Source: Hormiphora californensis (lineage: Eukaryota; Animalia; Ctenophora). From it: a stretch of DNA of 64,000 nucleotides. Position numbers and translations under genes: made by a program. The stretch is from the NCBI GenBank assembly GCA_020137815.1, contig CM035354.1:2046001-2110000 (forward strand), read 5' to 3'. The stretch's first letter is position 1; the number at the start of each line of letters is the position of its first letter. The notes beneath the pieces are model-generated. The model did not search any database, was not told the DNA's origin, and was given only the letters and a program-made list of their open reading frames with translations. Shown here one piece after another: positions 13,994 to 61,231 of the stretch.

Positions 13994-14108
13994 TTCCCTA
14001 TTCAGTCATGCTATAATCCCATTGACAAGATTCTATCTTTGCTTGCTAGACAAAAGAGACATGATATGATGTTATTTCGACGCACTGTAATTAGCTAACC
14101 GTACTTAA

Positions 14109-15413: not shown

Positions 15414-15417
15414 TTAA

Positions 15418-22400: not shown

Positions 22401-23720
22401 TCAGGACACATTTAGGACACATTCAGGGGGCACATTCAGAACATTCAGGAAACATTTAGGACACACAGGACATATTTGGGACACATTCAGGGAAATTCAG
22501 GAACTTCAGGACATATTCGGAACATTAGGACCATCAGACACATTAGGACACATCAGGACCATTCAGGGCCCCATTAGGACAATTCGGGTCACATTAGGGC
22601 ACTTTAGGACAATTCAGGGCATCAGGACACATTGGGGGCCCCATTAGGACCAAGAAAATTCGGACAATTTAGGACATTGGGTCACATTTGGACACATAAA
22701 AGGGGGCACATTCGGACAGATTCAGGGGCCATTTGGGGGCAATTTAGGACACCAAAATTTAGGACAGGGTTTTGGGGAAAATTCGGGAACATTCGGGGCA
22801 TTCGGGACACATTCGGGACATATTTAGGGCCACAGGACCATTTAGGACAATTTGGGACATTCAGGGGAAAATTTAGGACACATTTAGGGAAATTCAGGGG
22901 TTGAAAAGGGCACCCTTCAGGCAATTCAGGGAAAATTGGCACATTTGGGTCCATTTTAGGACACATTTTGGACCATTTTAGGACGATTTAGGGGACTTCG
23001 GGGTCACATTTTAGGACACCTAATTGGGGGCACATTGGGGAAATTCGGACACATTGGGACACATCAGGAAACAAATTTAGACAGTTGGGAAAATTCGGGA
23101 CACATTCGGGAACCCTTCGGGACACTCGGGACACATTGGGACATATTCAGGACAATTAGGACACATTCAGGACATATTCGGGAATATTAGGACACCCTCA
23201 GGGCACTTTAGGACACATTCGGAAACATTCAGGAGTCCAATCAGGCACTTCAGGACACATTTAAACATTCGGACTAGGGGCACTTCAGGACCTTTAGGAC
23301 CATTCAGGGACCTAGCGGACCTCAGGACCATTGGGCTATTCAGGACACATTTGGAACATTCCGGGGCTGCAGGAACATTCAGGAATTTCGGGACACATTA
23401 GGACCATTCGGACACATTTAGGAAAAAAACAGGACACATTAAAAATTGGGCCCAAAATTCAGGCACATAGGAACATTGGAAGTTAGGGCCCCTTCGGGGA
23501 AAATTCAGGACACATTCGGGAATATTTTGGAACTTCAAAACACTTCGGCACATGGGACTATTTAGGACCATCAGACCATTCGGGCCATTCAGGAACTTTG
23601 GGGAAAAAAAGGACACATTTTTGACAATTCAGTTTAATCAGGAAATTTAGGACATATTTAGGACCCCAGGGGCACCCTTCATTATATTCAGGACACATTT
23701 GGGACAAATGGGGGCACATC
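19480..23720. repeat. Degenerate 11-12-bp satellite (ggacacattca)n, probably low-accuracy consensus
   Basis: Clean units at ~20045-20140 and 20930-21010, scrambled elsewhere; homopolymer-biased flanks. Confidence 0.85.
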
Positions 23721-25519: not shown

Positions 25520-26490
25520 CTAGCTGCGTGCCTTGGCATGTTCTTCACTGTCCACCATGACAATGTTCCTAGATGCAGCAACCAGCTGTACCACCGAGAT
25601 AACACTCTGAGGGGGGTAGCAGGGGTTAACGACCGAGATAACACTCTGAATGGGGGATAACAGGGGTTAACGGCTGAGATAACACTCGTAATGGGGGGTT
25701 AGTTAGTGATAGGGACATGGTACAGTGACTGGTTAAATGAAGAAGCGGTTAGGTAACTACTAACTATAGAACACAGCTGCAGTACTAGGATGTCACCACT
25801 AACTAATGTAACAACATGAGAATATGGTCAGGCCAATACTCTGACAGAGTAACAACATGGCTCGCAGTTTACCTTGATGACCATGATGGGTGCACAAAGA
25901 AGGGCAGTAGACCTGAACAGGGCATAACCACCCACATCTGGTCCCTCTGAGAATCGGAGCAGGTACAGAGCCGCAAAGAACAACTCATTTCCTGTGGAGA
26001 GGGAGGGGGAGGTAAAAACGCTGTAAATTTCGACAAAATGAACAAGAGCTACAAAACAGGGCCAGACAGAAAAAGGGAAGGGCAACACTTCCTTTTCCCT
26101 TACCAGCGCACATTCCGAAAAGTACAGTTCGGTTTGTGTAGTAATAGTAGAGGATGGGGTTTTCAGTCAGATCGATCTGCTTGTGTGAAGTTGCTCCTGA
26201 AGAAAGAGAGAGAGGGATGTATTTAAAATAGGCAAGTTATGGAATAATTCCCCAATCCCCGGGCCACAAACTTAATTCTTATCTATTATACTAAGGAGCA
26301 TCTAAGGTATCCTAAAAGACGTGATCCCTGATGGGTTGTCACCCCCAAAATAACAACCCCAGCTGGGTGATACCAGTATCACCTTTCCCCCAATCAGACA
26401 AATACCCGTACACCAGCGTAATGGCGTCCTTATAATCAAACAAACAAACAAACAAACAAACAGACAGACAGACAGACAACAGACAAACAA

Positions 26491-26594: not shown

Positions 26595-27407
26595 CTCCAC
26601 GTATAACTAACCAGCGTAGTGAGAAGCAGTGAGGTGAATCCAGTGACTCCAGATATCCAGGACAGCATAACATTGGAAGAAGAGGAAGTAGTCGGGGTAT
26701 AGAACACCCAGTGCCATCACCAGACCCAGGGTACTGCACCTGTGTTGGAGGGGGGGGGGGTATCAAATGGGGGAGGGGGGTATCAAATGGGGGAGGGGGG
26801 GGGGGTGATTTAGACAAGGGTACTGCACCTGTGTTGGGGGGGGGGGGGTGATTTAGACAAGGGTACTGCACCTGTGTTGGAGGGAGGGGGTATCAAATGG
26901 GGCCGGGGGGGGGGGGGGGTATCAAATGGGGCCGGGGGGGGGGGGGGGTATAAAATGGGGGAGGGGGTATCAAATGGGGGAGGGGGGTGGTATCAAATGG
27001 GGGAGGGGGTATCAAATGGGGGAGGGGGGTGATTAGCTTTCACATCTAGTAGAAACATCTAGTAAATTGTCCTCCCACTCTCTTCCTAGTAAGATCAGGA
27101 GAGGGTCAGAAGACATAGAGGGGCAATTAACTAACTAAATATTAATTAACTAATTAATTAATTACCTGTCAGTTAGCATGTCAAGCATTCCCCCAAACTT
27201 GCTGCTCTGCCCCAGAAGCCTGGCGGCATGGCCATCAAAAGCATCCAGGAGTTGACTGAGTAGATAACAGGCTACAGTGATAGTATACAATTCAGGATTC
27301 CGCATGTAGTAGAAAGCAATGAACATGAGGATGACACGAGCATATCCGATGAGATTTGGAACGAAGAGGAATACATTGGGTTGGGAGGGTGCCATTCTGG
27401 GTTCCAT
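25520..27407 (-). CDS. CDIPT: Phosphatidylinositol synthase (CDP-diacylglycerol-inositol 3-phosphatidyltransferase), 5 exons
   Basis: NVFLFVPNLIGYAR; CDP-alcohol phosphotransferase motif DAFDGHAAR..QSSKFGGMLDMLTDR; LDIWSHW; SHKQIDL..NPILYYYY..LFGMCAGNELFF; ends EHAKARS*. The start may be ATG 27395. Confidence 0.95.
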
Positions 27408-27433: not shown

Positions 27434-33126
<5,693 letters not shown>

Positions 33127-42314: not shown

Positions 42315-43087
42315 AGCTGAAGAGAGATAGAGAGAGAGAGATGAGAAGGTGACTGAGAGAGACAGGAATTGGAACTTAGAAGTGCACGCAATTGGCGACT
42401 CCTCTCTACGTCTCGCCCATGCTCCATCATGCACGCATTTCCGGTATAGCCACCCTGCATCTACGTATCTCGCATCCTGGAACCAGGTTAACTACAAACA
42501 AGGTGAAGAAGTCAAAAATAATAAAGAGAACTAAAACAACAACACAACCAAAAAGAGACAGGCGAGACAAAAATCGATATTCCTCTCAACAAAAAAGATC
42601 CAGCTGTCAAAACATCGGATTATGGTCCAGGACTGGAGTGGATTAGGTAGCAAATAGAGGAGTACAAAGTTAATCAGGTCTCATTTCACAAAAGATCCAG
42701 ACTAGAGTCATCTAGAGGGGGGAAGAGAATTGAGTAAGTGAGAGAGCAACATGGCATTTCAGCACTTCAAAGGTGGCGTAGGAGAGAAGAGTTTTTGGTT
42801 GCAAGTAGCCAAAAGTACCATGTTTGTGGAAGTGCCTACCGTATCGCATGATGCATGTGCTTCCAAGCTAGGTGGGACATGCCTGTACAGTATCATGTAC
42901 TATAACAAAGACAAGGCTAGGGCCAAGGATTGAAATTATAAAACATGTAATATATGATACTTGTATGAATACAATGTGTGTGCTATGAGACATGCAATGT
43001 CAATTCAAACACCCTATTGATCACATTGTTTCACACACAGTGAGTATACCAACATACAATTTCCTATAATATATATCCTAAATAGTG

Positions 43088-44155
43088 TACAGAATGAATC
43101 ACTCACCTGCAACGTCTACGGGAGGAGAGACCTCGTCATCAGACGGACGACAGGAGCTTCAATATATCAAACTTGAAGTAGACCTGGAGGGGGAAATGTG
43201 TATGGAAACTAAAAAGGGTAGAGGGGGAAATGGGTATGAAAACTATGAAGGGTAGAGGGGGAAATGGGTATGAAAACTAAAAAGGGTGGAGGGGGAAATG
43301 GGTATGAAAACTAAAAAGGGTAGAGGGGGAAATGGGTATGAAAACTAAAAAGGGTAGAGGGGGAAATGGGTATGAAAACTATGAAGAGTAGAGGGGGAAA
43401 TGGGTATGAAAACTATGAAGGGTAGAGGGGGAAATGGGTATGAAAACTAAAAAGGGTAGAGGGGGAAATGGGTATGAAAACTAAAAAGGGTAGAGGGGGA
43501 AATGGATATGAAAACTAAAAAGGGTGGAGGGGGAAATGGGTATGAAAACTAAAAAGGGTAGAGGGGGAAATGTGTATGAAAACTATGAAGGGTAGAGGGG
43601 AAATGTGTATGAAAACTAAAAAGGGTAGAGGGGGAAATGGGTATGAAAACTATGTAGTGCATCAGCCCGGACTGTATTATAATGTCAGAGTTATAATTAT
43701 AGGTTTTACAGTTAGATATTAGGGCCCTGGTTTTATTCTGTAGTCTGTACCATCCCCGGTTGCGGGGTCCGGGGGGGGGGGGGGGGGGGTATGACATACC
43801 CGGTATGTACTCTGTGCGGCACCAACTTTTGGTAATTGATTTTGTTGTCACATACAGATCTTTTGTTAGGGCTTTTTTGCGGAGCCCGGAGGTACCGACT
43901 TGAACAAATCTTTTGCTAGTGGCTGGGCTTACCAAAAATACCTCCCCTTGTAGGAGACGGGCAATACAAATTTGAAATTAAATTGAATTCTCTATCGCCA
44001 GAATAATATAGTAACGGACATATCTTTGCTGATAAAGGGATTTCTGGTAAAGCTTTGTAGTAACGGACATAAAAATGTTTGGAATATTTGAGGACAAAAA
44101 AGAAATCCCATTAGTCCTTAAATAAAAACTTACCAAACAGCACAAATATGTTCAT
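43088..44155 (-). CDS. Possible small secreted-protein gene (exon 1 MNIFVLF|gtaag; exon ~43183-43088)
   Basis: Signal-like micro-exon and canonical splice sites, but the frame is broken in both copies of the duplicated block. Confidence 0.3.
43187..43655. repeat. 31-bp minisatellite (gggtagagggggaaatgggtatgaaaactaaaaa-like)
   Basis: About 15 copies; a garbled duplicate lies at 47975-48435. Confidence 0.9.
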
Positions 44156-44671
44156 GATTGTGTAGAAAAAAACTCGTGGTGTTGACAATTCTCTCACTCA
44201 ATTGATCTTGAAAAGCTGCTCTGGGAGAATATTATGAAAATTTACATATATTCAGTGAAGAATTAAAAATGTTCTCTTAGAGATAGGTACGGTTTATCCC
44301 CCCGTAAAATGACAATGACCGACCACGCACAAGACAACAAATCATTGGAGGATCACTGGGCATCAATTGTAAATGGTATAATATATTTATTATTTTTAGG
44401 AGTTTGAGGTCATAGAAATCGTTGATGGGTTTGGAGTTGTGTTAGAAATGTTTGAAACTTAAAAGTTGTTGCCCGGTGATGCGCCAATACCAATTGACAC
44501 TGTCATTGCTGGATAACAGTGTCACCTGAAGACTAGCAATGACAGTGTAGTATGTTGTAGTAGGCATGGGAGATTATATTCAAGAAAACAAACAGCTAAA
44601 AATTCCCCGATTTCTGGCTCGAGGTAAAAAAATATGTCTAAAAACAAGAATTTAAACGTCACAAAAATTGC

Positions 44672-46544
44672 TTACAGAGTCCTTTCATCAACGTCAATTT
44701 CAAAATCCTCACGGAAAACCTTAGAAACAAACCGGGCTTGTCTTTCTGATAACCAGGGGTCTTCTTTCTTCTTCTTTTTCTCCTGACTCTCCTCTTCTTG
44801 CCGTTGAACATTCTCACTGACCATGGCGGTATCAAAACGCGGTACTTTCCGAGAGAGTGCATCCGAGACACGATTATAAAGGGGCACATCGTAGTCGGAG
44901 AGAAGATTTAGGACGACACCACGTTTACCCATTCTGGCTGTCCGACCTGCCCGGTGCAGGTAACCAACAGTATCCACGGGCAACTGGGCGTTTATCACCT
45001 GATATAAGAAGTGTACTGATTACTGCCAGACCAGCGTTAGTTAGAGGTAAAAGGTTGGTTAGATAACAGGGTGAATAAATCAAGTCTTAATTAATTAGTA
45101 GGGGTTGCTATGGTTACCAATTACTGTCAGGAACCGGACGTTTATACGAAACGAAACGAAAACGAAACGAAACGGTCATTTTTTCACGAAAAATAACCGA
45201 AACGAAAAAAATTTGAGAAAAAATAAACGAAACGAAACGAAACGAACAATTTTTCAGTCTTCATAAACCGAAACGAAACGAAACGAAATTTTTTTCAGTC
45301 TTCATAAACCGAAACGAAACGAAACGAAAAATTTTCAGTCTTCTCAAAACGAAACGAAACGAAAAAAATTTGAGAAAAAATAAACGAAACGAAACGAAAC
45401 GAAAAAATATTGACCAAAAATAACCGAAACGAAACGAAACGATGAAATATTGACCAAAAATAACCGAAACGAAACGAAACGGAAAAAAAATTGAGAAAAA
45501 TAAACGAAACGAAACGAAAAAATTTGGCCAAAAATAAACGAAACGAACCGAAACGAAAAAATTTTGACCAAAAATAAACGAAACGAAATCAAATAACCAA
45601 ACCGAAACGAAACGAAACGAACCGAACGAAACGAACCGAATTTTAAAACCGAACCGAACTGAACCGAAACATCTTGACCGACTGCCAGCTGCAGACAATG
45701 GTGTCATTTTATATTGAGCTGTGAGCACTTGAATCAGTACTTTGATAATTGATACCTGCCTGCCTTCTAGAAAAGAAATCTTTCTTTGTTGGGTCTCTGA
45801 TCTGTTGGCTACTCTCTGATGGATTCTCTCTGTTGGAGAGTCCCAACAGAGAGTCCTTGTTTTGTTCAACCCCTTTTTATTTTATTTACTGCGAATGGCA
45901 GTCTAGCTTGGCAAATCTAAGATATAGTCCAACCAAACTGAATTTTGAAACTGAACAGAATTTCAAAAACCAAACCGAAACGAAACGAAACGAATTTTAA
46001 AAACCGAAACGAACCGAAACGAAAAAATATTGACCTCAAATAACCGAAACGAACCGAAACGAAAAATTTCAAAAAAAAATAAACGAAACGAAAAAATTTC
46101 GATAAAAAATATCCGAAACGAAACGAAAAAAATTGAGAAAAAATAAACGAAACGAAACGAAAAATTTTCGACAAAAAAATATCCGAAACGAAACGAAACG
46201 AAAATTTTTTAGTGTTCATAAACCGAAACGAAACGAAACGAAAAAAATTTGAGAAAAAATAAACGAAACGAAAATTTTTTCAGTCTTCATAAACCGAAAC
46301 GAAACGAAACGAGAAAAAATTGAGAAAAAATAAACGAAACGAAACGAACTGAAAACCCCAAAACGTCCGGTTCCTACAATTACACAGAATTATGTTCTCA
46401 CCATGTCCAGATTGGGAATGTCAAGGCCACGTGAGGCAACATCTGATGCCACTAAGATCCGAACAGTTCCCCGCTGAACTCGTTTTATCACAGCTGCTCG
46501 CTCCTGGATATATGATAGGAAAGAATCAGAGAAAGATTGAGTTG

Positions 46545-46730: not shown

Positions 46731-49700
46731 TATATATATATATATATAGAGCGAGAGAGAGAAAGAGAGAGAGAGAGAACAAGCTATGGTTGGAGGAAGA
46801 AATAGAGTCTGGTAGAACAGACTCAGATGAATTCAATTAGTTGGAGAAGAGCTAAACCAATCAATTCTCTTTAAGATGAAAGTCCTTTTGTTGCTCTGCC
46901 TTACAGCACTGACAAGCGCAGGAAATGTCCGACAAGAATTCCTAGCGTCCCTTGGAAACCTACAGCCCAGCGCTGCCCGATTCCGTCTATATGCTCGAAA
47001 CTTGGATAAAATCTCGGAATTAAACCACGAATCGGGTGGAAAGTGGAGAGCTGGAGTTAACAAGTTTGCTGTCATGACAGAGGGGAGAGAGAGCGTTACA
47101 CAAAGGTCTTAACACTAACTGGGACGATCTGATCTTCCTCCCTCCTCTCCTCTCTCCCTATCTGATGCCCCTACTGAGGTAGATTGGAGGGAGAAGGGGT
47201 TTGTTAGTCCACCCAGGGATCAGGTAGGATGCGGATCTTGTTGGATATTCGCCGCTGTGGCGACTATCGAGAGTAGGGCCGCGGCCGCAGGAAGCAAACC
47301 TCAGCACCTCAGCTGACCAGGAGATTGTGGATTGTGGAAGTCCGTACCGAGATGCCTGCGAGGGAGGGGATCCTCTCAAGGCCCTGGAATATGTGTTCGA
47401 TAGGAAGGCGCTGGCAAGGGGAGGCTGATTACCCGTATATTGGTCGCAGTAACTACAAGTGTATGAGGGATGGTAAGGAGAATGGCCTGACAGGGGGAGT
47501 GAGACAGCGGTACTACGACTACCGATACGGTGCTGATCAGATGATATCTGCACTGGCTGGAGGCCCCATTATTGTGGAATTCAATGCAATTGAACCATTC
47601 ATGTTTTACAGGGAGGGGGTGTTCGACTACCGGGAAGAGAGAGAGGAGAGACAACACACAGACACAGAGAGACATAGAGAGACAGAGACAGAGAGAATGA
47701 GCGACGGGCCCGGCCCTTTTCGGCCGAAGGCCGAATTACATTGACTAGTGAATACAATGTGTGCTAGGAGACATGCAGTGTCAATTCAAACACCCTATTG
47801 ATCACATTGTTTCACACACACAGTGAGTATACAATTTCCTATATATACCTCTAATAGTGGTACAAAATGAATCACTCACCAATGTCGGAGGAGAGACCTC
47901 GTCATCAGACGACGACAGGAGCTTCATATACCACTTGAACTAGACCTGGAGGGGACTGACCACTTAAAGTGTAATGGGAAATGGGTATGAAAACTAGGAA
48001 GGTAGAGGGGGAAATGGGTTGAAACTATAGGGTGAAGGGGGAATTGGTATAAAATAGAGGGTAAGGGGGAAATGGGTATGACTTGGGTGCGGGGGGGGGC
48101 TGGTTGAAGGCACTATGACGGGTAGCAGGGGTAACACCTGGGTATGACAAACTAAAAAGGGTCGGGGGGAAATGTGCCTAAGGGTAAGGGTGCGGGGTAT
48201 GAAGCTAGCTGGTAGGGGAGGTGGGTATGAAAGACTCGGGTCGAGGGGGGTGGGGTTGACCTATGAAGGGTGGGGGGGGAAATGGGTATGCTTGACTGGT
48301 GGGGAAGGGTAGGGTGAAATAGGGAGGGGGTGGTCGTGTATGAAAACCTAGTTTTGAACTAAAAGGGTAGAGGGGGAAAATGGGTATGAAAACACTACCC
48401 GGGTTAGAGGGGGAAATGGGTTATGAAAACTATGTAGTGCATCAGCCGGACTGTATTATAATGTCAGTTATAATTATAGGTTTTACAGTTAAGGCCCTGA
48501 TTTTATTCTGTACTCTGTACCATCCCCCGGTTCGATGCGAGGTACGGGGGGGGGGGGGGGGGGGGGGGTGACATACCCTGTGCGGCAACAACTTTTTTGT
48601 AATTGATTTTGTTGTCACATACAGATCTTTTGTTAGGGCTTTTTTGCGGAGCCCAGAGGTATCGACTTGAACAAATCTTTTGCTAGTGGCTGGGTCTACA
48701 AAAATACCTCCCCTTGTAGGAGACTGGCAATACAAATTTGAAATTAAATTGAATTCTCTTATCGCCAGAATAATATAGTAACGGACAATCTTTGCTGATA
48801 AAGGGATTTCTGGTAAAGCTTTGTAGTAACGGACATAAAAATGTTTGGAATATTTAGGACAAAAAAGAAATCCCATAGTCCTTAAATAAAAACTTACCAA
48901 ACAGCAGAAATATGTTCATGATGTGTAGAAAAAAACTCGTGGTGTGACAATTCTCTCACTCAATTGATCTTGAAAGCTGCTCTGGGAGAATATTATGAAA
49001 ATTTACATAGATTCAGTGAAGAATTAAAAATGTTCTCTTAGAGATAGGTACGGTTTATCCCCCCGTAAAATGACAATGACCGACCACGCACAAGACAACA
49101 AATCATTGGCGGATCACTGGGCAGCAATTGTATAATATATTTATTATTTTTAGGAGTTTGAGGTCATAGAAATCGTTGATGGGTTTGGAGTTGTGTTAGA
49201 AATGTTTGAAACTTAAAAGTTGTTGCCCGGTGATGCGCCAATACCAATTGACACTGTCATTGCTACACAGCGGTGTTATCTGAAGACTAGCAATGACAGT
49301 GTAGTATGTAGTAGGCATGTGAGATTGTATTCAAGAAAACAACCAGCTAAAAATTCCCCGATTTCTGGCTCGAGGTAAAAAAATATGTCTAAAAACAAGA
49401 ATTTAAACGTCACAAAAATTTCTTACAGAGTCCTTTCATCAACGTCAATTTCAAAATCCTCACGGAAAACCTTGGAAACAAACCGGGCTTGTCTTTCTGA
49501 TAACCAGGGGTCTTCTTTCTTCTTCTTTCTCTCCTGACTCTCCTCTTCTTGCCGCTGAACATTCTCACTCACCATGGCGGTATCAAAACGCGGTACTTTC
49601 CGAGAGAGTGCATCCGAGACACGATTATAAAGGGGCACATCGTAGTCGGAGAGAAGATTTAGGACGACACCCGTTTACCCATTCTGGTCTGTCCGACCTG

Positions 49701-51182
49701 CCCGGTGTAGGTACCAACGGTATCCCAGGGCAACTGGGCGTTTATCACCTGGTATAAGAAGTGTACTGATTACTGTCACTGCCAGACCAGCGTTAGTTAG
49801 AGGGAAAAGGTTGGTTAGATAACAGGGTGAATAAATCAAGTCTTAATTAATTAGTAGGGGTTGCTATGGTTACCAATTACTGTCAGGAACCGGACGTTTA
49901 TACGAAACGAACCGAAAACGAGAGAGAGAAGAGATGAGAGAGATCTAGAAGAGAGAGAGGAGAGATAGAGAAGGAGAGATGATTTGAGAGGGAAGAAAAG
50001 GGGAGTAGACAGAGTGGAAAGCGGGGGGAGGCTATTTTAGTAAAGATCATCGCGTTAACTTGATCCCCTTATCTAGCACTCTATAGTTGCTCATTCAGCA
50101 TTTCTCGTATTCATGAATCGATTAGTTGCACTACTATCTTTCCTTCTCTCTTATCTATTCGCTCATCTCTCGTGTATCATGTTGCTCTTTTGGAATTTCT
50201 TTACCAGCTTTTCTTTTGTCTCTGCCTCTCAGGCATTATAGAGCCGAGACCCGTTGAGAGGGTTAGTTGAAGCTTTCCTCAACCTCGATCTGAGACACCG
50301 GGGTTGAGAGAGAACCGCGAAATGGCCGCTTTTTGTGCGTGTGATGAACAAAGAACCTGCACAATAGGGGAGACGCAATGACGAAAGTCGCGATGACGAA
50401 AGTCGCGATAGTTCTTTACGGTATCATACCCGACACTCGTAGAAGAAGAAGAATAGGGGAGACGACTACAAAAAGGAGAGTTTTGAAGTTGATTGTTAAA
50501 GGAGCGAGAGCTTCGGAGTAAAACAGAGAGGAGTCAACAAGAATGGAAGAGATTACCACCACTTGATACATTTCTAACATGACAAGCTCAAGTACATGAC
50601 TCTAAGAGACAGTTGCTGTGTTTTATTTTAATTGTTGCTGTGTTATATTTTAATTGTTGCCGTGATATTTTATGTAGTTTGAAAGTTGTAATCTCGGTTG
50701 TGATAGGAATTCCCCCAAACATAGATTTATCGTGCAAGAGCCCTTTACTCACAGAGCCCGGAAGGGTTCTTGCACGATAAATAGAGGCGCACGGTATTTA
50801 TAGGAGTGTCACCCAATAAGTATGTGTAATGAAGCCGTTGCTTTAATCCACCTTGACAAGGCGGTTCAGGGACCTCAACTTACTGCCACAGAATTAAACA
50901 CAACACACACACACACACAAATACAAACAAACAAACAAACAAACAAACCGCACCCTGACATGAAGCCCAGTTGCACCTCGCATCCCGCGCGCGCCCTTTC
51001 TGTAACAGAATCACGCGCGAAGAACCCTCTCCCGTAGCTCGTTTCGGTAGACCTTCCCCCGCGCCGCCGCCGTTGACTTGGGTGGTGGCAACTTCAGGAG
51101 CACTGCGTGTGCGCCGCTCACACAGCGTACACACACCAACTGCAGCTCAACTCGACGTATCATGCATATTGAGACGAATCAT

Positions 51183-51218
<36 letters not shown>

Positions 51219-54200
51219 CTTCTCTTACGTTTTGTATTGAAGGTGGCTGCAACATAGACCAGTTGTTTTGGTGTGGTAGGGGTGGTAGAGGTCCGGTGAT
51301 ATCTCAAGGGGTCCACCAGGTCGCCCACTATCCGGTATGTTAGGTTCTTTAACGAACCACTGTGGTACACATCCGCCTCGTCTAGAACTAACGTTGGGAT
51401 GTGGCCAAATATCTAGAGGGAATATGAAATTATATAATTGCAATATCATAGAGAATGAAAAGGGTGAAGAGTTTTCAGAAAACTGGAGTACAAATATTGA
51501 ATAAAATGGGGCGCCTAGGAGTGCAGTAGGCAACTTAAATATCCATAAACAAAGCTCATAATAAGATGAAGGGAGCAATATGTCGCCCCACTACAGTAAC
51601 TAGAGGGAACAGTACACAGAGGACAGCTGTAAACAGTTATAGAGTGACCCTCGTTTCACCCAAGTTCACCCAAGTTCATCCAAATTTCGAAAATAAATTT
51701 CGATTTACCAAAAAGTAGGTATCAGGGTAGTAACCCCCCTGATTATGTAATTGACCCAGTAAATTCTTCACATGTATCTCTACCACACGTTATTATAGTT
51801 GAATACAAAATGAATCCATTACCTTTCCGTAATCATAATCCCGTAGTTTGGACATGGTGGTAATGATGAGAGGTGATGTCTTGTCCACATAACTCCTGTG
51901 TTCACTCACACCTTCCCACAAATATGGAGATACCACACCTAACCTAAGGAAGGAGTTGTCTTAACTAAGAGATAGATAAAGAGTTTGACTCACTGCACAG
52001 AGAGCTAGGAGGTACATCGTTAAAAACAGAATCAATAGTAACAAACTACCTTGAGTCGCTTGATACTAAATTATGAACAATTCAAAACATCTCTACCATA
52101 TTATATCTTCACTTACTCAGCGGGACGAATATGTGTAAACATGTGGGCCACTTGTTGACCCAACTCGGGGGTCGGTACAAATACAAGGTGTTGTCTAGTT
52201 CGGCCCTCCAGCATGGAGTTCAACAGGGGTAGTAGGTAACAAAGTGTCTTGCCGCAGCCCGTTTCAGCGTGGCATACGACATGCCGGCCTGCTAGTAGTT
52301 GGGGTATCGCCTGGAGGGATGGGAGGGATGGTAAACTATTGGGGTATCGCCTGGAGGGATGGGAGGGATGGTAAACTATTGGGGTATCGCCTGAAGGGAT
52401 GGGAGGGATGGTAAACTGTTGGGGCTATCGCCTGGAGGGATGGGATGGTAAACTGTTGGGGTATCGCCTGGAGGGATGGTACACTGTTGGGGTATCGCCT
52501 GGAGGGATGGGAGGGATGGTAAACTGTTGGGGTATCGCCTGGAGGGATGGGAGGGATGGTAAACTGTTGGGGTATCGCCAGGAGGGAGGGATGGTAAACT
52601 GTTGGGGTATCGCCTGGAGGGATGGGAGGGATGGTAAACTGTTGGGGTATCGCCTGGAGGGATGGGAGGGATGGTAAACTGTTGGGGTATCGCCTGGAGG
52701 GAGGGATGGTAAACTGTTGGGGTATCGCCTGGAGGGATGGGAGGGATGGTAAACTGTTGGGGTATCGCCTGGAGGGCCGGGAGGGATGGTAAACTGTTGG
52801 GGTATCGCCTGGAGGGATGGTAAACTGTCGGGGTATCGCCTGGAGGGATGGGAGGGATGGTAAACTGTTGGGGTATCGCCTGGAGGGATGGGAGGGATGG
52901 TAAACTGTTGGGGTATCGCCTGGAGGGATGGTAAACTGTTGGGGTATCGCCTGGAGGGATGGTAAAGGGATGGTAAACTGTTGGGGTATCGCCTGGAGGG
53001 ATGGGAGGGATGGTAAACTGTTGGGGTATCGCCTGGAGGGATGGTAAACTGTTGGGGTATCGCCTGGAGGGAGGGATGGTAAACTGTTGGGGTATCGCCT
53101 GAAGGGATGAGAGGGATGGTAAACTGTTGGGGTATCGCTGAAGGGATGGTAAACTGTTGGGGTATCGCCTGGAGGGATGGGAGGGATGGTAAACTGTTGT
53201 GGTATCGCCTGGAGGGATGGGAGGGATGGTAAACTGTTGGGGTATCGCCTGGAGGGATGGGAGGGATGGTAAACTGTTGGGGTATCGCCTGGAGGGAGGG
53301 ATGGTAAACTGTTGGGGTATCGCCTGGAGGGATGGTAAAGGGATGGTAAACTGTTGGGGTATCGCCTGGAGGGAGGGATGGTAAACTGTTGGGGTATCGC
53401 CTGGAGGGATGGGAGGGATGGTAAACTGTTGGGGTATCGCCTGGAGGGATGGGAGGGATGGTAAACTGTTGGGGTATCGCCTGGAGGGATGGGAGGGATG
53501 GTAAACTGTTGGGGTATCGCCTGGAGGGAGGGATGGTAAACTGTTGGGGTATCGCCTGGAGGGATGGTAAACTGTTGGGGTATCGCCTGGAGGGATGGGA
53601 GGGATGGTAAACTGTTGGGGTATCGCCTGGAGGGATGGTAAACTGTTGGGGTATCGCCTGGAGGGAGGGATGGTAAACTGTTGGGGTATCGCCTGGAGGG
53701 ATGGGATGGTAAACTGTTGGGGTATCGCCTGGAGGGAGGGATGGTAAACTGTTGGGGTATCGCCTGGAGGGATGGTAAACTGTTGGGGTATCGCCTGGAG
53801 GGATGGTAAACTGTCGGGGTATCGCCTGGAGGGATGGGAGGGATGGTAAACTGTTGGGGTATCGCCTGGAGGGATGGGAGGGATGGTAAACTGTTGGGGT
53901 ATCGCCTGGAGGGAGGGATGGTAAACTGTTGGGGTATCGCCTGGAGGGATGGTAAACTGTTGGGTATCGCCTGGAGGGATGGTAAACTGTCGGGGTATCG
54001 CCTGGAGGGATGGAGGATGGTAAACTGTTGGGGTATCGCCTGGAGGGATGGGAGGGATGGTAAACTGTTGGGGTATCGCCTGGAGGTGAGGGATGGTAAA
54101 CTGTTGGGGTATCGCCTGAAGGGAGGGATGGTAAACTGTTGGGGTATCGCCTGGAGGGATGGTAAACTGTTGGGTATCGCCTGGAGGGATTGGTAAACTG

Positions 54201-54976
54201 TTGGGGTATCGCCTGGAGGGATGGGAGGGATGGTAAACTGTTGGGGTATCGCCTGGAGGGAGGGATGGTAAACTGTTGGGGTATCGCCTGAAGGGATGAG
54301 AGGGATGGTAAACTGTTGGGGTATCGCCTGGAGGGATGGTAAACTGTTGGGGTATCGCCTGGAGGGATGGTAAACTGTTGGGGTATCGCCTGGAGGGATG
54401 GGAGGGATGGTAAACTGTTGGGGTATCGCCTGGAGGGATGGGAGGGATGGTAAACTGTTGGGGTATCGCCTAGAGGGATGGGAGGGATGGTAAACTGTTG
54501 GGGTATCGCCTGGAGGGATGGGAGGGATGGTAAACTGTTGGGGTATCGCCTGGAGGGATGGGAGGGATGGTAAAATGTTGGGGTATCGCCTGGAGAGAAG
54601 GGAGGGATGGTAAACTGTTGTGGTATCGCCTGGAGGGAGGGATGGTAAACTGTTGGGGTATCGCCTGGAGGGAGGGATGGTAAACTGTTGGGGTATATCA
54701 CCTATAGGTTGTCAACAGTAACACCAATCTTAATGACAGTGGTGTGACACCACTGGTATCTATTGTGGCGGAATGGCTGGACCTGTGCTAAATAACCGCT
54801 CAATAAGTGAAACTAACCCGAGATTGTATAGCAGTGGGTTTCTCGAATTTAATATCTTCTAAGCGTTGAAGGAGTGCGGGATGAAGCCCAAGATCTCCCC
54901 ACTCTGTGGATGTGTAGGCCCGAGAAGTGGAGGGATGACTCCTGCAACACCTTTTTAACACCCTTCCTATTAACAT
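44672..54976 (-). CDS. DEAD-box RNA helicase with a mitochondrial-type N-terminus (DDX28-like)
   Basis: Exon 1 (54976-54818) Q motif WGDLGL..FEKPTAIQ. Exon 2 from 52310 AETGCGKT and VPTPEL. LVLDEAD and AAT (~51410-51230). Motif V VASDVASRGLDIP (46503-46402). Motif VI YLHRAGRTARMG (44998-44672). The motif IV region was not recognisable. Confidence 0.85.
45128..46376. mobile_element. 1.25-kb TIR element filled with (GAAAC)n arrays; TIR begins CAGGAACCG like MITE A
   Basis: caggaaccggacgttt...aaacgtccggttccta; caattac on both flanks; unique core ~45680-45930. Confidence 0.8.
46876..47640 (+). CDS. Papain-family (C1A, cathepsin L-like) cysteine protease; intronless, frameshifted and 3'-truncated here; nested antisense in the helicase intron
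   Basis: Signal peptide; I29-like ARFRLYARNL..GVNKFAVMT; then VDWREKGFVSPPRDQVGCGSCWIFAA, CEGG, YPYIG and FMFYREGVF across frameshifts. The catalytic His/Asn part is missing. Confidence 0.8.
47749..49920. repeat. Direct duplicate of 42966-45165 (includes the helicase last exon), indel-rich
   Basis: Near-identical sequence with many 1-nt indels; ends inside the TIR of the GAAAC element. Confidence 0.9.
52298..54700. repeat. 2.4-kb minisatellite of 31-40-bp units, each a 3' splice site plus 13 nt of helicase exon 2
   Basis: Minus-strand unit agtttaccatccctcccatccctccag|gcgataccccaac, about 65 copies. Confidence 0.95.
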
Positions 54977-55344
54977 GTCTACATGTACATGATGTTAGAA
55001 TATGTATTCGATGTTTTGAGTTCACCAAAACAAATTGAAACGAGAGAGTTAAAAAGTTGTGAAATATAGATTTGTAAAATAGATTATAATGTTGAGTAAA
55101 AATCAAATTTAAAATAGTTGTGTCGTCTATTTTTCAGACTGCCTTCGGGATTTCTTTTTAAACAATTGGACACTTGCTTGTTATTGAAGAGCAACTGTTC
55201 TTTTGTAAACACTGAATAACATTGATGTTTAGTCCGGTTTTGATAATTTGGAGATGGTGGAGGCTGGTGGGGTAGTATATCTTGGTTTCATTGTTCACAC
55301 CAATATTGTTGGAGGGTGCGATATGACATCGAAGACGCTCATTT

Positions 55345-55380
55345 ATTAGACGTTTCGGCTGTACGGCCATTATCAATAAT
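55345..55380 (-). ncRNA. Mirror copy of the minimal hammerhead ribozyme
   Basis: Exact reverse complement of 58655-58690. Confidence 0.75.
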
Positions 55381-55578
55381 GCTATGGGGGAATTTACATT
55401 AGCACATTACATAAGACATCAATATGTACATAGGGGACAAAAGACTGGACCAAACGGCAAACACACACAACATAAACAGAAGCCAAAAAAAACAACAAAC
55501 AACCGAATCCACGATACTGCTCCTTCATAAAAAACTCTTATTTACATTTATTTACACATGAAATATTATAACAAAATA

Positions 55579-57022
55579 CTAAAAAATGAACCCGTTGTTG
55601 CACATTTTGTTCAATGGTGGCCTTAGTCGTGTAATGGCACGGCTCTCTCTGAGATAGGCGTCTATGGGGTCTCTACCCTTATTTATTATATCAAAATTGA
55701 AAATATTGAAGAATGCATCGTATTCCCTTCTCCCTGCTTGTCCGTATATGAGCTCCGGGTGCATCTCATTAGCATGTTCTGCTACTGCGGAGCAGTCCAC
55801 ATGTCCCAATCTGGTGTGAGTCTCGTGCTCGGCGATCCGGTGTTTCAGTGGCCTGCTTGTCACACCTATGTAGGTACCGTTGTTGCATAGGTTGCACGAA
55901 GCACGGTACACTACGTTTTCCGTCGAGCATGGAATGCCATGTTGATGCAGCTCGCATTCACAGTTTTGACTGTTTTCTTCTTTGTTGTTGTAATGGTTTT
56001 TCACCATGCTAGCAACAGTTCTTCCCGAAGATGTTACCACACGGATCGGCAGCCCAGATTCTTTAACTGCTTTCTTCACCTTTCGTAGGGCGCCCTCATT
56101 GGTGTATGGCAGTTTCATGATGTATATTTTGTTGGATTTTTCATCATCTGGTGGGGCCGGGCTTGTAGTCGGGGTGGATAACTGCTTCGCAATTTCCAAG
56201 CTAACAGTTTTTATCGGGTAGCCTGAGTTGACTAGATTTTCTCTCAGTTTTTCAAGGTGAGGGAATGCTAGGTCAACTGTGGAACACCTGTTGAGGATGC
56301 GTTTTGTTTCTGTGCGGATTATATTTAGTTTTATAACTTCTGCACAGTGGGAGTGATAGTTGAGGTAGCTTCCACTGTGGGTGCTCTTCTGAAAGAGTTC
56401 CCACGTTAGAGATGTTTCTCCTCCGTTGTTGGTGGTTCTAACGGTCAGGTCGAGAAAAGAGATTTCTGAGACTCCTACTGCTGGTTCTGTTGCCTCTTCT
56501 CTTGTAAATTTTACTGATGACCAGATGTTTCCGAGTTTTTCAATGAATTTGTCACAGTGTTCACGTTTGGTCCATAGGCTATGACTGTCGTCGACATAGG
56601 TAGCAAGTGAGAGAGGTTTCTCTTCATCGGGCTGTCACGTCCAGTGTCCGGTTGTATAGATGGTCCACAATGATCTCAGCATAGGCTCCTGAACTATGGT
56701 ATCCTGTACCAATTCCAGTAATCTGACGGTAGAAATTGCCTCCACTTTGAATGTACGTATGGCTAGTTACGAACCTGAGCATTTGGATGATGTGCTCGGG
56801 GTTGAAGCCTAACAGATCTATGTTAGGAGTATTTCTCACATAATGTAATACTAGATCCATAGCTCTGTCATCAGTTGGTATCGAGGGGTACATATTCTCC
56901 ATGTCGAAACTAGATTGGTGGGTGTTAGCAGGGAGTGAGTTTTGTAGTGGGATGAGGCAAGAGTTAATGAAAACATCGGCACTTGATACTCGGTGTGTTA
57001 GATTTGGTAGTATTTGACTCAA
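55579..57022 (-). pseudogene. Inverted copy of the PLE ORF with a 1-nt insertion (~56632)
   Basis: Reverse complement of the + copy except for an extra C, which could be a read error. Confidence 0.9.
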
Positions 57023-58456
57023 ATACTACCAAATCTAACACACCGAGTATCAAGTGCCGATGTTTTCATTAACTCTTGCCTCATCCCACTACAAAACTCA
57101 CTCCCTGCTAACACCCACCAATCTAGTTTCGACATGGAGAATATGTACCCCTCGATACCAACTGATGACAGAGCTATGGATCTAGTATTACATTATGTGA
57201 GAAATACTCCTAACATAGATCTGTTAGGCTTCAACCCCGAGCACATCATCCAAATGCTCAGGTTCGTAACTAGCCATACGTACATTCAAAGTGGAGGCAA
57301 TTTCTACCGTCAGATTACTGGAATTGGTACAGGATACCATAGTTCAGGAGCCTATGCTGAGATCATTGTGGACCATCTATACAACCGGACACTGGACGTG
57401 ACACCCGATGAAGAGAAACCTCTCTCACTTGCTACCTATGTCGACGACAGTCATAGCCTATGGACCAAACGTGAACACTGTGACAAATTCATTGAAAAAC
57501 TCGGAAACATCTGGTCATCAGTAAAATTTACAAGAGAAGAGGCAACAGAACCAGCAGTAGGAGTCTCAGAAATCTCTTTTCTCGACCTGACCGTTAGAAC
57601 CACCAACAACGGAGGAGAAACATCTCTAACGTGGGAACTCTTTCAGAAGAGCACCCACAGTGGAAGCTACCTCAACTATCACTCCCACTGTGCAGAAGTT
57701 ATAAAACTAAATATAATCCGCACAGAAACAAAACGCATCCTCAACAGGTGTTCCACAGTTGACCTAGCATTCCCTCACCTTGAAAAACTGAGAGAAAATC
57801 TAGTCAACTCAGGCTACCCGATAAAAACTGTTAGCTTGGAAATTGCGAAGCAGTTATCCACCCCGACTACAAGCCCGGCCCCACCAGATGATGAAAAATC
57901 CAACAAAATATACATCATGAAACTGCCATACACCAATGAGGGCGCCCTACGAAAGGTGAAGAAAGCAGTTAAAGAATCTGGGCTGCCGATCCGTGTGGTA
58001 ACATCTTCGGGAAGAACTGTTGCTAGCATGGTGAAAAACCATTACAACAACAAAGAAGAAAACAGTCAAAACTGTGAATGCGAGCTGCATCAACATGGCA
58101 TTCCATGCTCGACGGAAAACGTAGTGTACCGTGCTTCGTGCAACCTATGCAACAACGGTACCTACATAGGTGTGACAAGCAGGCCACTGAAACACCGGAT
58201 CGCCGAGCACGAGACTCACACCAGATTGGGACATGTGGACTGCTCCGCAGTAGCAGAACATGCTAATGAGATGCACCCGGAGCTCATATACGGACAAGCA
58301 GGGAGAAGGGAATACGATGCATTCTTCAATATTTTCAATTTTGATATAATAAATAAGGGTAGAGACCCCATAGACGCCTATCTCAGAGAGAGCCGTGCCA
58401 TTACACGACTAAGGCCACCATTGAACAAAATGTGCAACAACGGGTTCATTTTTTAG
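57014..58456 (+). CDS. 5'-truncated PLE ORF: reverse transcriptase plus GIY-YIG endonuclease
   Basis: SFDMENMYPSIP, YRQITGIGTG, YVDD, FLDLTV, VVYRASCNLC..YIGVT.R.LKHRIAEH, SAVAEHA and E..AI..LRPPLN. Confidence 0.95.
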   Translation: MTQILPNLTHRVSSADVFINSCLIPLQNSLPANTHQSSFDMENMYPSIPTDDRAMDLVLHYVRNTPNIDLLGFNPEHIIQMLRFVTSHTYIQSGGNFYRQITGIGTGYHSSGAYAEIIVDHLYNRTLDVTPDEEKPLSLATYVDDSHSLWTKREHCDKFIEKLGNIWSSVKFTREEATEPAVGVSEISFLDLTVRTTNNGGETSLTWELFQKSTHSGSYLNYHSHCAEVIKLNIIRTETKRILNRCSTVDLAFPHLEKLRENLVNSGYPIKTVSLEIAKQLSTPTTSPAPPDDEKSNKIYIMKLPYTNEGALRKVKKAVKESGLPIRVVTSSGRTVASMVKNHYNNKEENSQNCECELHQHGIPCSTENVVYRASCNLCNNGTYIGVTSRPLKHRIAEHETHTRLGHVDCSAVAEHANEMHPELIYGQAGRREYDAFFNIFNFDIINKGRDPIDAYLRESRAITRLRPPLNKMCNNGFIF

Positions 58457-58654
58457 TATTTTGTTATAATATTTCATGTGTAAATAAATGTAAATAAGAG
58501 TTTTTTATGAAGGAGCAGTATCGTGGATTCGGTTGTTTGTTGTTTTTTTTGGCTTCTGTTTATGTTGTGTGTGTTTGCCGTTTGGTCCAGTCTTTTGTCC
58601 CCTATGTACATATTGATGTCTTATGTAATGTGCTAATGTAAATTCCCCCATAGC

Positions 58655-58690
58655 ATTATTGATAATGGCCGTACAGCCGAAACGTCTAAT
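58655..58690 (+). ncRNA. Minimal type-I hammerhead ribozyme in the PLE terminal repeat
   Basis: atta-TTGATAA-tggc cgtaca gcc-GAAA-cGTC-taat: U3-A8 core variant, stem II ggc/gcc, 1-bp stem III with palindromic ACGT, stem I atta/taat. Confidence 0.75.
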
Positions 58691-58842
58691 AAATGAGCGT
58701 CTTCGATGTCATATCGCACCCTCCAACAATATTGGTGTGAACAATGAAACCAAGATACGGTTTTGATAAACACACACACAGAATCTGAGCTGTGTGTTTT
58801 CTGTGTCACAGAGATCTATAGATTCCCTCTCATATATTGTGA

Positions 58843-61231
58843 TTAGTTGTTGAAGTTGAGGGCCCCAGTGTGGGTGCTATGTTGCGCCTTCCACGCGTTC
58901 ACATTGATATTAGTGACATTGGCTACAAAACTCAGGATATCCTCAATCTTGACCTCGATATACGATCTGTAACCCCAGCTGTACTGGAAACCATCTCCCT
59001 TGGTGGAGGTAACCTTCTTCCGCTCAATGTACTGCTGTTTACAGAATTCTGTAAATATCTTCTCTACGTCACCAAAGTCAACGTGACCTTCATTCCTGTT
59101 ACATAAGGGGAGAATTATTTGGGGTTTGTTGGGTTTCTCGGACCCGCCTCCCTCTTCTTTACAATATATAGAGAGGGTCAAGTAATGTTGAGGGGGTGAC
59201 GGACGGTGTCATCAGCCCTATACAGCTGATCCAGAGGGTCAAGTAAGGCAAATTTACCTGCTGATCCCCAGAATGTCCAGGGTATCCCAAAGGTCGGCCT
59301 CGTCCAGAGAATTATCGGCCATGTGGATCAGGCTTAGTACCACAGTCAACAGTCCCAGCTGGGAGATATATGGGATTAGGTTAGGTTATTAGGTGAGAGG
59401 GGGATATAGATAGGAGGAGATAGATGGGATTAGGTTAGGTAAGAGGGGAGATATATGGGATTAGGTTATTAGGTGAGAGGGGGATATAAACAGTGGGAGA
59501 GTGAGTTGTATAGTAAGAGGAGGGTGTGTGTGTTGTGGTGGAGAGCAGCATTCCATTTTTGATGAAGTCCCCCCAAGACTAGTGTAGGAGGAGGGGTAGG
59601 GAGTGAGATGGTCTAGTCAACTCACCTGGGGTAGGGAGTGAGATGGTCTAGTCAACTCACCTGGGGTAGGGAGTGAGATGGTCTAGTCAACTCACCTGGG
59701 GTAGGGAGTGAGATGGTCTAGTCAACTCACCTGGGGTAGGGAGTGAGATGGTCTAGTCAACTCACCTGGGGTAGGGAGTGAGATGGTCTAGTCAACTCAC
59801 CTGGGGTAGGGAGTGAGATGGTCTAGTCAACTCACCTGGGTAGGGAGTGAGATGGTCTAGTCAACTCACCTGGGGTAGGGAGTGAGATGGTCTAGTCAAC
59901 TCACCTGGGGTAGGGAGTGAGATGGTCTAGTCAACTCACCTGGGGTAGGGAGTGAGATGGTCTAGTCAACTCACCTGGGGTAGGGAGTGAGATGGTCTAG
60001 TCAACTCACCTGGGGTAGGGAGTGAGATGGTCTAGTCAACTCACCTGGGGTAGGGAGTGAGATGGTCTAGTCAACTCACCTGGGGTAGGGAGTGAGATGG
60101 TCTAGTCAACTGCTGCAACCCATCTGCCTTGCTATCGTTCTTCAAGATGTACATCTTGCCCCTCTTATCATCGATCTGAAACAGCCGGATGATACAGTCG
60201 GACCCCGATTTAGTGGCACCCCGATTTAGTGGCACCCCGATTTAGTGGCAGGATTTTTATCCCCCGATATACAAAAATTAACATTATTTGAACCCGATTT
60301 AGTGGCACCCCGATTTAGTGGCAAGATTTTTTCCCCCGAGGATGCCACTAAATCGGGGTCCGACTGTATAAGCAAGGAACCGACCGAATAATGAAATACT
60401 GGTCCCTGATTGGCTGATAACCAGTCACGTGACCTAAATAACAAGTTCTGATTGGTTGTTTACTTGTGTCGGGGATTGCGAAGATATTGTACAGCACTGA
60501 GCATAGTTTGCATCATTTGGAGCACACTAAGCGTGTGGGAGTATGGTACCAAGAGATCAATGGCACACGTCTAATCAGGGAGGGAACTGAGAAAGCGAAG
60601 ACAAACTAAGCGGGGAGGGGCACTGAGAAAGCGAAGACAAACTAAGCGGGGGGGGGGAGGGGCACTCAGCTGAGTACTGATCTAGATAGTTGATACCTCA
60701 CAAACAGAGAAGTCAAATGTTTCCTTGAGATGTTTCCTAGCACCCTCCAACACTGTAGGAAAGAGTCGGTGATGATCTTTCAGGACGTTCTTTGCCACAT
60801 CTGCCCTCTTTACTGGAATCTGAATGACATCAGTAAATTAAACATCGGCTTATCTACATTGTCAATAGTGAACAAGTTAGTTCTTGTTTTGGAAGGTAAT
60901 GATGAAGGATGTTGTCAGTGGTGTGGTGATTTTCACTGTCACATAGAATGCAGGCTCAAGAGAACAGGTGTACAGTAGCTACTGTACAAGTACTAGTAGT
61001 CTAACCATGTAACAGGCATGATACATGCAAACTAATTGCATGAGTTCATTGTTTGTATTTTTGTTTACTTGTTTTGGTATCAGGTATGCAACACACACAC
61101 ACATACAGACAGACACACACACACATACACTCATACAGACATACACACACACACACACATACAGACAGACAGACACACACACACATACACACATACAGAC
61201 ATACACACACACACACACAAACACACACACA

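What the first reader, a model, noticed from the sequence alone, without database searches (positions are those of the whole stretch)
52298..54700. About 65 tandem decoy 3' splice sites precede the real acceptor of a DEAD-box helicase exon
Seen: intron 1 (54817-52311) is almost wholly an array whose unit is a polypyrimidine tract, CAG and the first 13 nt of exon 2. Exon 1 (..IQSR) joins ..AIPQLLAGRHVVCHAETGCGKT precisely at the last unit. Established: spliceosomes usually pick the first good AG after the branch point. Inference: correct splicing must skip dozens of near-identical acceptors (exon definition, stepwise removal or NMD). The unit is nearly stop-free, so some upstream acceptors could instead add variable P/T/I-rich inserts after the Q motif.
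Basis: partly seen in the sequence, partly recalled or inferred. Interest (0 to 1): 0.82.

Follow-up and report, generated by a model that had tools for sequence, protein, structure and literature searches.

The report
Giant splice-acceptor repeat in comb-jelly helicase
In a comb-jelly gene for an RNA helicase, the end of the first intron and the first 13 letters of the next exon are copied head-to-tail 64 times, but almost every spare splice site would give a broken message, so this is likely an unusually long example of a known, tolerated kind of repeat ('mirage') that is predicted to be cut out with the intron.

Summary
Intron 1 (54817-52311, minus strand) of a ctenophore DDX28-like helicase gene contains 64 tandem units of 30-42 nt, each made of 13 nt of exon 2 plus the intron's last 17-29 nt; 63 end in AG. 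Exon 1 must join the last unit: Mnemiopsis and transcript-like relatives make that same join with no insert. The 'variable insert' idea fails: the last three units carry TAG in all three frames, so no upstream unit acceptor leaves the frame open. That result rests on one extra G (without it 23 of 64 open). This is a 'mirage', an exon-boundary minisatellite described in lancelets (PMC3087553) and human F7. This scan found similar arrays in other genomes (21-53 copies), and four more lie in this window. The likely mechanism is exon definition: each unit has its own branch point, and only the last sits next to a full exon. No RNA or reads of this species were available. The gene's middle exons are missing from this assembly, and a noisy duplicate lies downstream.

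The parts
54818..54976 (-). Exon 1 coding part (53 aa): basic N-terminus, likely a mitochondrial presequence (inferred), and the Q motif ending IQSR; GT donor at 54817
   Evidence: 60% identity to Mnemiopsis P0158 residues 215-247; P0161 has 54 residues to the same point
54703..54817 (-). Non-repetitive 5' part of intron 1 (about 115 nt)
54665..54702 (-). Degenerate first copy of the unit (TAG acceptor-like site at 54702)
52298..54696 (-). Minisatellite ('mirage'): 64 intronic units of 30-42 nt, each 13 nt of exon 2 plus a second AG, a branch-point-like TTTAC, a C-rich pyrimidine tract and CAG
52425..52427 (-). TAG made by a one-base insertion in the third-last unit; it is in exon 2's reading frame and closes every in-frame upstream unit acceptor
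52376..52378 (-). TAG in the second-last unit (C>T variant), second frame
52336..52338 (-). TAG in the last intronic unit (C>T variant), third frame
52311..52337 (-). Authentic 3' splice site (branch-point-like A 22 nt from the end, tract, CAG at 52311)
   Evidence: same acceptor position in Mnemiopsis models P0154 and P0158
52117..52310 (-). Exon 2 (194 nt): motifs I and Ia; strong GTAAGT donor; followed by a short 173-nt intron
   Evidence: Pfam DEAD E=5e-14; top three PDB hits are DDX28
51823..51943 (-). Exon 3
51229..51412 (-). Exon 4 (motif II DEAD; AAT at the motif III position)
46402..46503 (-). Motif V exon
   Evidence: Pfam Helicase_C E=4e-7
44672..44998 (-). Last coding exon (motif VI) to the stop; a frameshifted duplicate lies at about 49760-49440

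Best explanation
The array is a 64-unit minisatellite whose unit spans the intron 1/exon 2 junction of a ctenophore DDX28-like helicase gene, likely born from a short local duplication and expanded by ordinary repeat turnover, and it is predicted to be removed whole with the intron because exon definition would favour the last acceptor, with nonsense-mediated decay likely clearing mis-spliced RNAs. Shown: the anatomy, the unit variants, the premature stop behind every upstream unit acceptor, and the conserved join in relatives. Inferred: (a) origin by duplication of about 30-40 nt across the junction, then unequal exchange or slippage that shuffled 31/35/40-nt variants; (b) U2AF/U2 settle on the last unit because it alone abuts the full 194-nt exon and its strong donor, across a short downstream intron, whereas each decoy is followed by only 13 nt of exon; (c) leaks are degraded. 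No dedicated function is needed.
For: Unit = last 17-29 nt of the intron plus first 13 nt of the exon, which is the described 'mirage' anatomy (PMC3087553 section 16; PMC3902484 passages); both report normal mRNA in lancelets. Variant units recur at scattered positions (31-nt A>G variant x3, 42-nt x2, 36-nt x2 identical) and the longest repeated run is 3 units, the commonest value in 2000 shuffles: a natural interspersed pattern, not block copies. Join conserved: P0158 and 8 of 9 members of the P0161 cluster (519 aa on 1.6-1.7 kb contigs, so likely spliced transcripts) have spacer 19; the ninth is a fragment lacking the region. 0 of 63 upstream unit acceptors are open. Long-upstream/short-downstream intron layout (2507/173 nt) is the class reported to mimic exon definition for 3' sites (PMC9225289 passages). 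Duplicated beta-globin acceptors with 14, 55 or 205 nt of exon spliced only to the distal site, though inefficiently (PMC5389562 passage). Junction copies are common here: 5 of 28 junctions examined have local copies, against 72 of 300 random positions, so they look like a by-product of a repeat-rich genome.
Against: No RNA or read of this species could be examined, so use of the last site is inferred from protein conservation. The same paper found an overall preference for upstream 3' sites, only reduced under exon definition, and the data are human. Repeats can act as real acceptors (CAG expansions, PMC10614865 abstract), and boundary repeats in human duplicated genes often have alternative transcripts (PMC2812944 passages). 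About 155 residues of the gene, including motif IV, are not found in the window, so this copy may be misassembled or broken. Zero open acceptors arose in only 5.2% of 1000 unit-order shuffles, a slight hint of selection.
Confidence: 0.8

Rival explanations
1. Selected fail-safe or rheostat: the three terminal TAG variants were kept by selection so that any mis-spliced RNA is destroyed, and array length tunes how much productive DDX28 mRNA is made.
For: Stops in all three frames sit in the last three units; zero open acceptors in only 52 of 1000 shuffles, mean 11 open; without the one extra G, 23 of 64 would be open.
Against: Only one of the three stops matters, since the other two frames stop in exon 2 anyway (52294, 52266). 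Edge units are known to escape homogenisation. The test is post hoc, p about 0.05. The G is a single base in one assembly.
Confidence: 0.08
2. Assembly artefact or dead copy: the unit number is inflated, or this gene copy is non-functional so that splicing is unconstrained.
For: Middle exons missing (P0161 residues 221-374 unmatched). 47749-49921 duplicates 42966-45165 at 87% with 99 gap openings, like noisy long-read sequence. A 3.5-kb 99.9% palindrome lies at 55278-58757. Several singleton units differ by homopolymer indels.
Against: 22 unit types with recurring discrete variants and no repeated blocks are hard to make by misassembly. The six exons found are open, have GT-AG ends and align to relatives at about 42-72% identity. 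The window has no N.
Confidence: 0.07
3. Upstream acceptors add variable P/T/I-rich inserts after the Q motif.
For: The array body is almost stop-free; two tract-less AGs give open inserts of 35 and 38 residues; 23 of 64 would be open if the extra G were an error.
Against: As assembled, no unit acceptor is open. The spacer is 19 in 109 of 118 homologs and never above 40; an insert here is expected to break adenine/ATP binding (established DEAD-box knowledge, recalled).
Confidence: 0.02
4. Stepwise (recursive) removal, or capture of spliced-leader trans-splicing by the decoys.
For: Leader trans-splicing is common in ctenophores (56% of Iso-Seq reads in Hormiphora, PMC8527503 passage). Two AG|GT sites exist at 54783 and 54702.
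Against: Unit junctions regenerate only a GC site without +5 G, and the GT inside each unit has no donor consensus. An upstream cis donor is present. Leader-joined products would lack the start codon and Q motif.
Confidence: 0.03

Closest known systems
'Mirage' minisatellites of amphioxus (Adh3, globins BflGb6/BflGb9, troponin C, PGBD5); PMC3087553 section 16 read whole, PMC3902484 passages; Canestro 2002 seen only as cited there
   Same: Tandem unit spans an intron-exon boundary and copies the splice signal; BflGb6 is also intron 3' end plus exon 2 start; unit size within the 10-160 bp range; divergent edge units; both acceptor and donor types occur (both in this window).
   Different: 64 units against 2-7 for the globin and PGBD5 cases I read; three main length classes; a ctenophore; length polymorphism and normal splicing are untested here.
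Human F7 intron 7 37-bp VNTR (PMC1557585; abstract and Discussion read)
   Same: Similar unit size; identical splice sites in tandem; only the exon-adjacent site is used although the others are functional.
   Different: F7 repeats a donor 5-9 times; this repeats an acceptor 64 times. The 35-bp array at 59593-60111 in this window is the direct F7-like case.
Internal tandem repeats at exon-intron boundaries of human duplicated genes (PMC2812944, passages)
   Same: Repeat at a boundary that could change splicing.
   Different: Those are often kept in exons as amino-acid repeats; here terminal stops and the fixed motif spacing preclude that.
DDX28 (mitochondrial DEAD-box helicase; PDB 9uu7, 7oi6, 9hcc) and Mnemiopsis ACHWQZ_G009044
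   Same: Best hits for exon 2 and the last exon; same exon 1/exon 2 join; MAGE/NSE3 gene directly upstream in both species.
   Different: Motif IV region is absent from this window; orthology was not tested with a tree.

Membership tests
Mirage (exon-boundary minisatellite) | Head-to-tail minisatellite, unit about 10-160 bp | tested here: met
   64 units of 30-42 nt
Mirage (exon-boundary minisatellite) | Unit spans an exon-intron boundary | tested here: met
   13 nt of exon 2 plus 17-29 nt of intron end; 63 local copies of the junction 16-mer at up to 2 mismatches
Mirage (exon-boundary minisatellite) | Splice signals duplicated in most units | tested here: met
   63 of 64 units end in AG; 63 of 64 have a TTAC branch-like motif
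Mirage (exon-boundary minisatellite) | Homogenised interior with divergent edge units | tested here: met
   Three unit types make up 38 of 64; degenerate 5' copy and private variants in the last three units
Mirage (exon-boundary minisatellite) | Length instability between alleles or cells | not testable with these tools
   No genome held; no run shown to hold the locus
Mirage (exon-boundary minisatellite) | mRNA spliced normally at the authentic site | tested here: inconclusive
   Run X1 laid no contig; only relatives' proteins show the join
Recursive splice site | AG directly followed by a consensus donor | tested here: not met
   Units give AG|GCGATA; only 2 of 136 AGs are followed by GT, both with poor consensus and not in the array body
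Coding VNTR / alternative-acceptor insert generator | Upstream acceptors in frame and stop-free to the exon | tested here: not met
   0 of 63 unit acceptors open; depends on one base
DEAD-box helicase | Q motif and motif I at fixed spacing; motifs II, V, VI | tested here: met
   Spacer 19; Pfam DEAD and Helicase_C; motifs aligned to P0154
DEAD-box helicase | Motif IV region | tested here: inconclusive
   Not found in the window; misassembly or real loss cannot be told apart
DDX28 subfamily | Orthology by phylogeny or reciprocal best hit | not tested
   One-way best hits only: top three PDB hits for exon 2 are DDX28; for P0158, DDX28 ranks third overall and best for the N-terminal helicase domain

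The most novel reading that the evidence does not exclude
A self-fusing mirage: one inserted base in the third-last unit puts a stop in the exon's frame and disarms all 23 otherwise in-frame decoys, which let the array grow to 64 acceptors without making poisoned helicases; allele length then sets DDX28 output through NMD. The array would be a natural titration of the exon-definition rule (and of leader trans-splicing onto intronic acceptors) in one of the earliest-branching animal groups.
Probability: 0.1. Interest if true: 0.55.

Novelty: new member of a known kind. Interest (0 to 1): 0.27.

Why it matters
As a class it is known, so the surprise is modest. Its value is as a test case: 63 near-identical acceptors in three length classes (branch-like A at 13, 17 or 22 nt from the end) compete with one real site, so long-read RNA could measure directly how strict exon definition and NMD are in a ctenophore. 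It also extends mirages to ctenophores as far as my searches show (searches listed no ctenophore case; one search listed 20 of 127 papers), and warns that gene predictors can read such arrays as long fake coding repeats.

Tried and rejected
No whole genome is held, so no genome-wide count. No RNA holder was listed; the one same-label run, X1, laid no contig on exons 2-4 or on the PIS gene's 3' part: uninformative, not evidence either way. RNA structure that would hide decoys or expose the true site: no signal (z = 0.93, 84 of 100 shuffles fold as well). Rfam: 0 matches in 51000-56000. Higher-order block repeats: none beyond chance. Enrichment of junction duplications over the local repeat background: none (5 of 28 against 72 of 300); the junction set was hand-picked, one gene was included because of its array, one donor was placed 2 nt off, and three internal PIS junction pairs or sites seen later were not included. 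G-quadruplex as driver of expansion: 27 motifs with loops up to 12 on the template strand against a shuffle mean of 10.7 (max 18), but 0 with loops up to 7, and 0 in six of the seven other arrays tested: a weak lead only; the CEB1 papers were seen as a search listing. Missing middle exons: not recovered by permissive tblastn. The DNA behind P0001 and P0005 could not be seen; their residues before the exon-2 start look like intron read-through without this repeat, which is inference. Canestro 2002 is not held. PMC8724738 and PMC2115697 passages gave nothing usable. No supplementary files were opened; Additional file 4 of PMC3087553 holds the mirage alignments.

Full report
Observation. The array is real in the assembly: 52298-54696, period 40, 65.2 copies, the top-scoring tandem repeat of the window. 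On the minus strand it fills intron 1 (54817-52311, 2507 nt) except for about 115 nt after the donor. There are 64 intronic units and the true exon start. Each unit reads: first 13 nt of exon 2, AG, a branch-point-like TTTAC, a C-rich pyrimidine tract of variable length, CAG. Lengths are 40 (30 units), 35 (12), 31 (11) and rarer 30-42; there are 22 distinct units. 63 of 64 end in AG. A degenerate copy at 54702 marks the 5' edge.

The gene. Exon 2 matches Pfam DEAD and its three best PDB hits are DDX28. The last exon's best hit is Mnemiopsis leidyi ACHWQZ_G009044, 53% identical, so the organism is very likely a ctenophore; the MAGE/NSE3 gene upstream is adjacent in both species. Mnemiopsis model P0158 joins the exon 1 and exon 2 equivalents exactly as the window's last acceptor does, and model P0154 enters at the same acceptor. 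A cluster of nine unnamed proteins on 1.4-1.7 kb contigs, likely spliced transcripts of another relative, has the same join in 8 of 9; the ninth lacks the region. Of 153 proteins then held, 118 matched a Q-motif-to-motif-I pattern and 109 had a spacer of 19, as the last acceptor gives. So the last unit is the authentic acceptor.

What the decoys would give. I translated exon 1 joined to each of 136 intronic AGs (of 138; two within 20 nt of the donor were left out). Three leave the frame open through exon 2: the true site and two tract-less AGs in the third-last unit (+105 and +114 nt). Every upstream unit acceptor meets a stop, because the last three units carry TAG at 52427, 52378 and 52338, one per frame. 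Only the first matters, as the other frames stop in exon 2 anyway. It comes from one inserted G seen in no other unit; without it 23 of 64 unit starts would be open, adding 40-746 residues. In 1000 shuffles of unit order, 52 gave zero open acceptors, mean 11. This is a weak, post hoc hint of selection; divergence of edge units is also a known feature of such arrays (PMC3087553 section 16). Either way an insert between the Q motif and motif I is unlikely to be functional (spacing data above; role of the motifs recalled).

Real or artefact. Variant units recur at scattered places and the longest repeated run of units is 3, the commonest value among 2000 shuffles. That fits natural minisatellite turnover, not duplicated read blocks. 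Against this, the neighbourhood is imperfect: residues 221-374 of P0161 (392-547 of P0154), including motif IV, have no match in the window; 47749-49921 is an indel-rich 87% copy of 42966-45165; 55278-58757 is a 99.9% palindrome. Copy number and the single G need reads. None were available.

How it most likely works. The scanning rule runs from the branch point that U2 has engaged, not from the donor (established knowledge, recalled). Each unit supplies its own TTAC, 22, 17 or 13 nt from its end in the three main classes, and there is no AG between the last one and the true CAG. The real question is which unit is engaged. Exon 2 (194 nt) has a strong donor, a long upstream and a short (173 nt) downstream intron. 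In human data splice sites closest across the exon are favoured under exon definition, and for 3' sites this long/short class behaves so, although upstream preference is the overall trend (PMC9225289 passages). Duplicated beta-globin acceptors carrying 14-205 nt of exon spliced, inefficiently, only to the distal site (PMC5389562 passage). The F7 VNTR shows the mirror case for donors (PMC1557585 abstract and Discussion). I infer that the last unit wins and that leaks are removed by NMD. Recursive removal lacks its signal; no special RNA fold or Rfam element was found.

Context. The same window holds four more boundary duplications: a 15-copy donor array in MAGE/NSE3 and short acceptor duplications in a phosphatidylinositol-synthase-like gene (two; name from my reading of the translation) and in a gene near 5.4 kb. 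At 5 of 28 junctions against 72 of 300 random positions, they are no more frequent than the general repeat load predicts.

Comparison and verdict. Repeats that span an exon-intron boundary are 'mirages' in lancelets, reported not to disturb splicing (PMC3087553, PMC3902484). The four structural features I could test are met; allele instability and normal splicing are untested. Earlier notes of this scan report like arrays in annelids, octopus, sea urchin and others, up to 53 copies, and exon-end copies elsewhere in this genome; I did not test their loci. This is a new, unusually long member of a known kind, in a phylum where my searches listed no report. Interest 0.27.

Noticed in passing
window 59593-60111 (-): Donor-side mirage: a 35-nt unit (30 nt of the MAGE/NSE3 exon end plus 5 nt of intron) repeated about 15 times at 99% identity; the first donor (exon end 60080) matches Mnemiopsis, and later donors would read into an in-frame TGA at once. 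A close F7-like case.
   Followed up: partly
window 25593-25697, 26750-26890, 5365-5715 (-): Three short acceptor duplications: 1 and 2 extra junction copies in a phosphatidylinositol-synthase-like gene and 3 in a gene near 5.4 kb.
   Followed up: partly
window 27542-28364 and 43187-43652 (-): Arrays (about 22 x 35 nt and 14 x 34 nt) that end right at an apparent acceptor without including exon; the first has pyrimidine tract + CAG in its units, ahead of an exon with the PIS-like start codon.
   Followed up: partly
window 51229-46503: About 155 codons of the helicase (motif IV region) are absent; an indel-rich duplicate of the gene's 3' end (47749-49921 vs 42966-45165, 87%, 99 gaps) sits there, starting at a GA microsatellite. 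Likely local misassembly.
   Followed up: partly
window 55278-58757: 3.5-kb palindrome, 99.9% identical arms, with ORFs of 481 and 351 aa that look like a Penelope-type reverse transcriptase with GIY-YIG nuclease (my reading, no family scan); it separates MAGE/NSE3 from the helicase. Other inverted repeats at 9543-10494 and 14105-15417. Could be an element or a fold-back artefact.
   Followed up: no
window 61700-58840 and 54976-44672; P0154/P0158: MAGE/NSE3 and the DDX28-like gene are neighbours on the same strand here and are fused into one model in Mnemiopsis annotation; possibly an operon-like read-through resolved by trans-splicing.
   Followed up: no
window 52298-54696 (+ strand): Template strand is G-rich with 27 long-loop G-quadruplex motifs (shuffle mean 10.7, max 18), none with short loops.
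   Followed up: partly
window 19500-23450: Large degenerate 10-11 nt repeat region (about 260 copies at 19999-22633), not examined.
   Followed up: no
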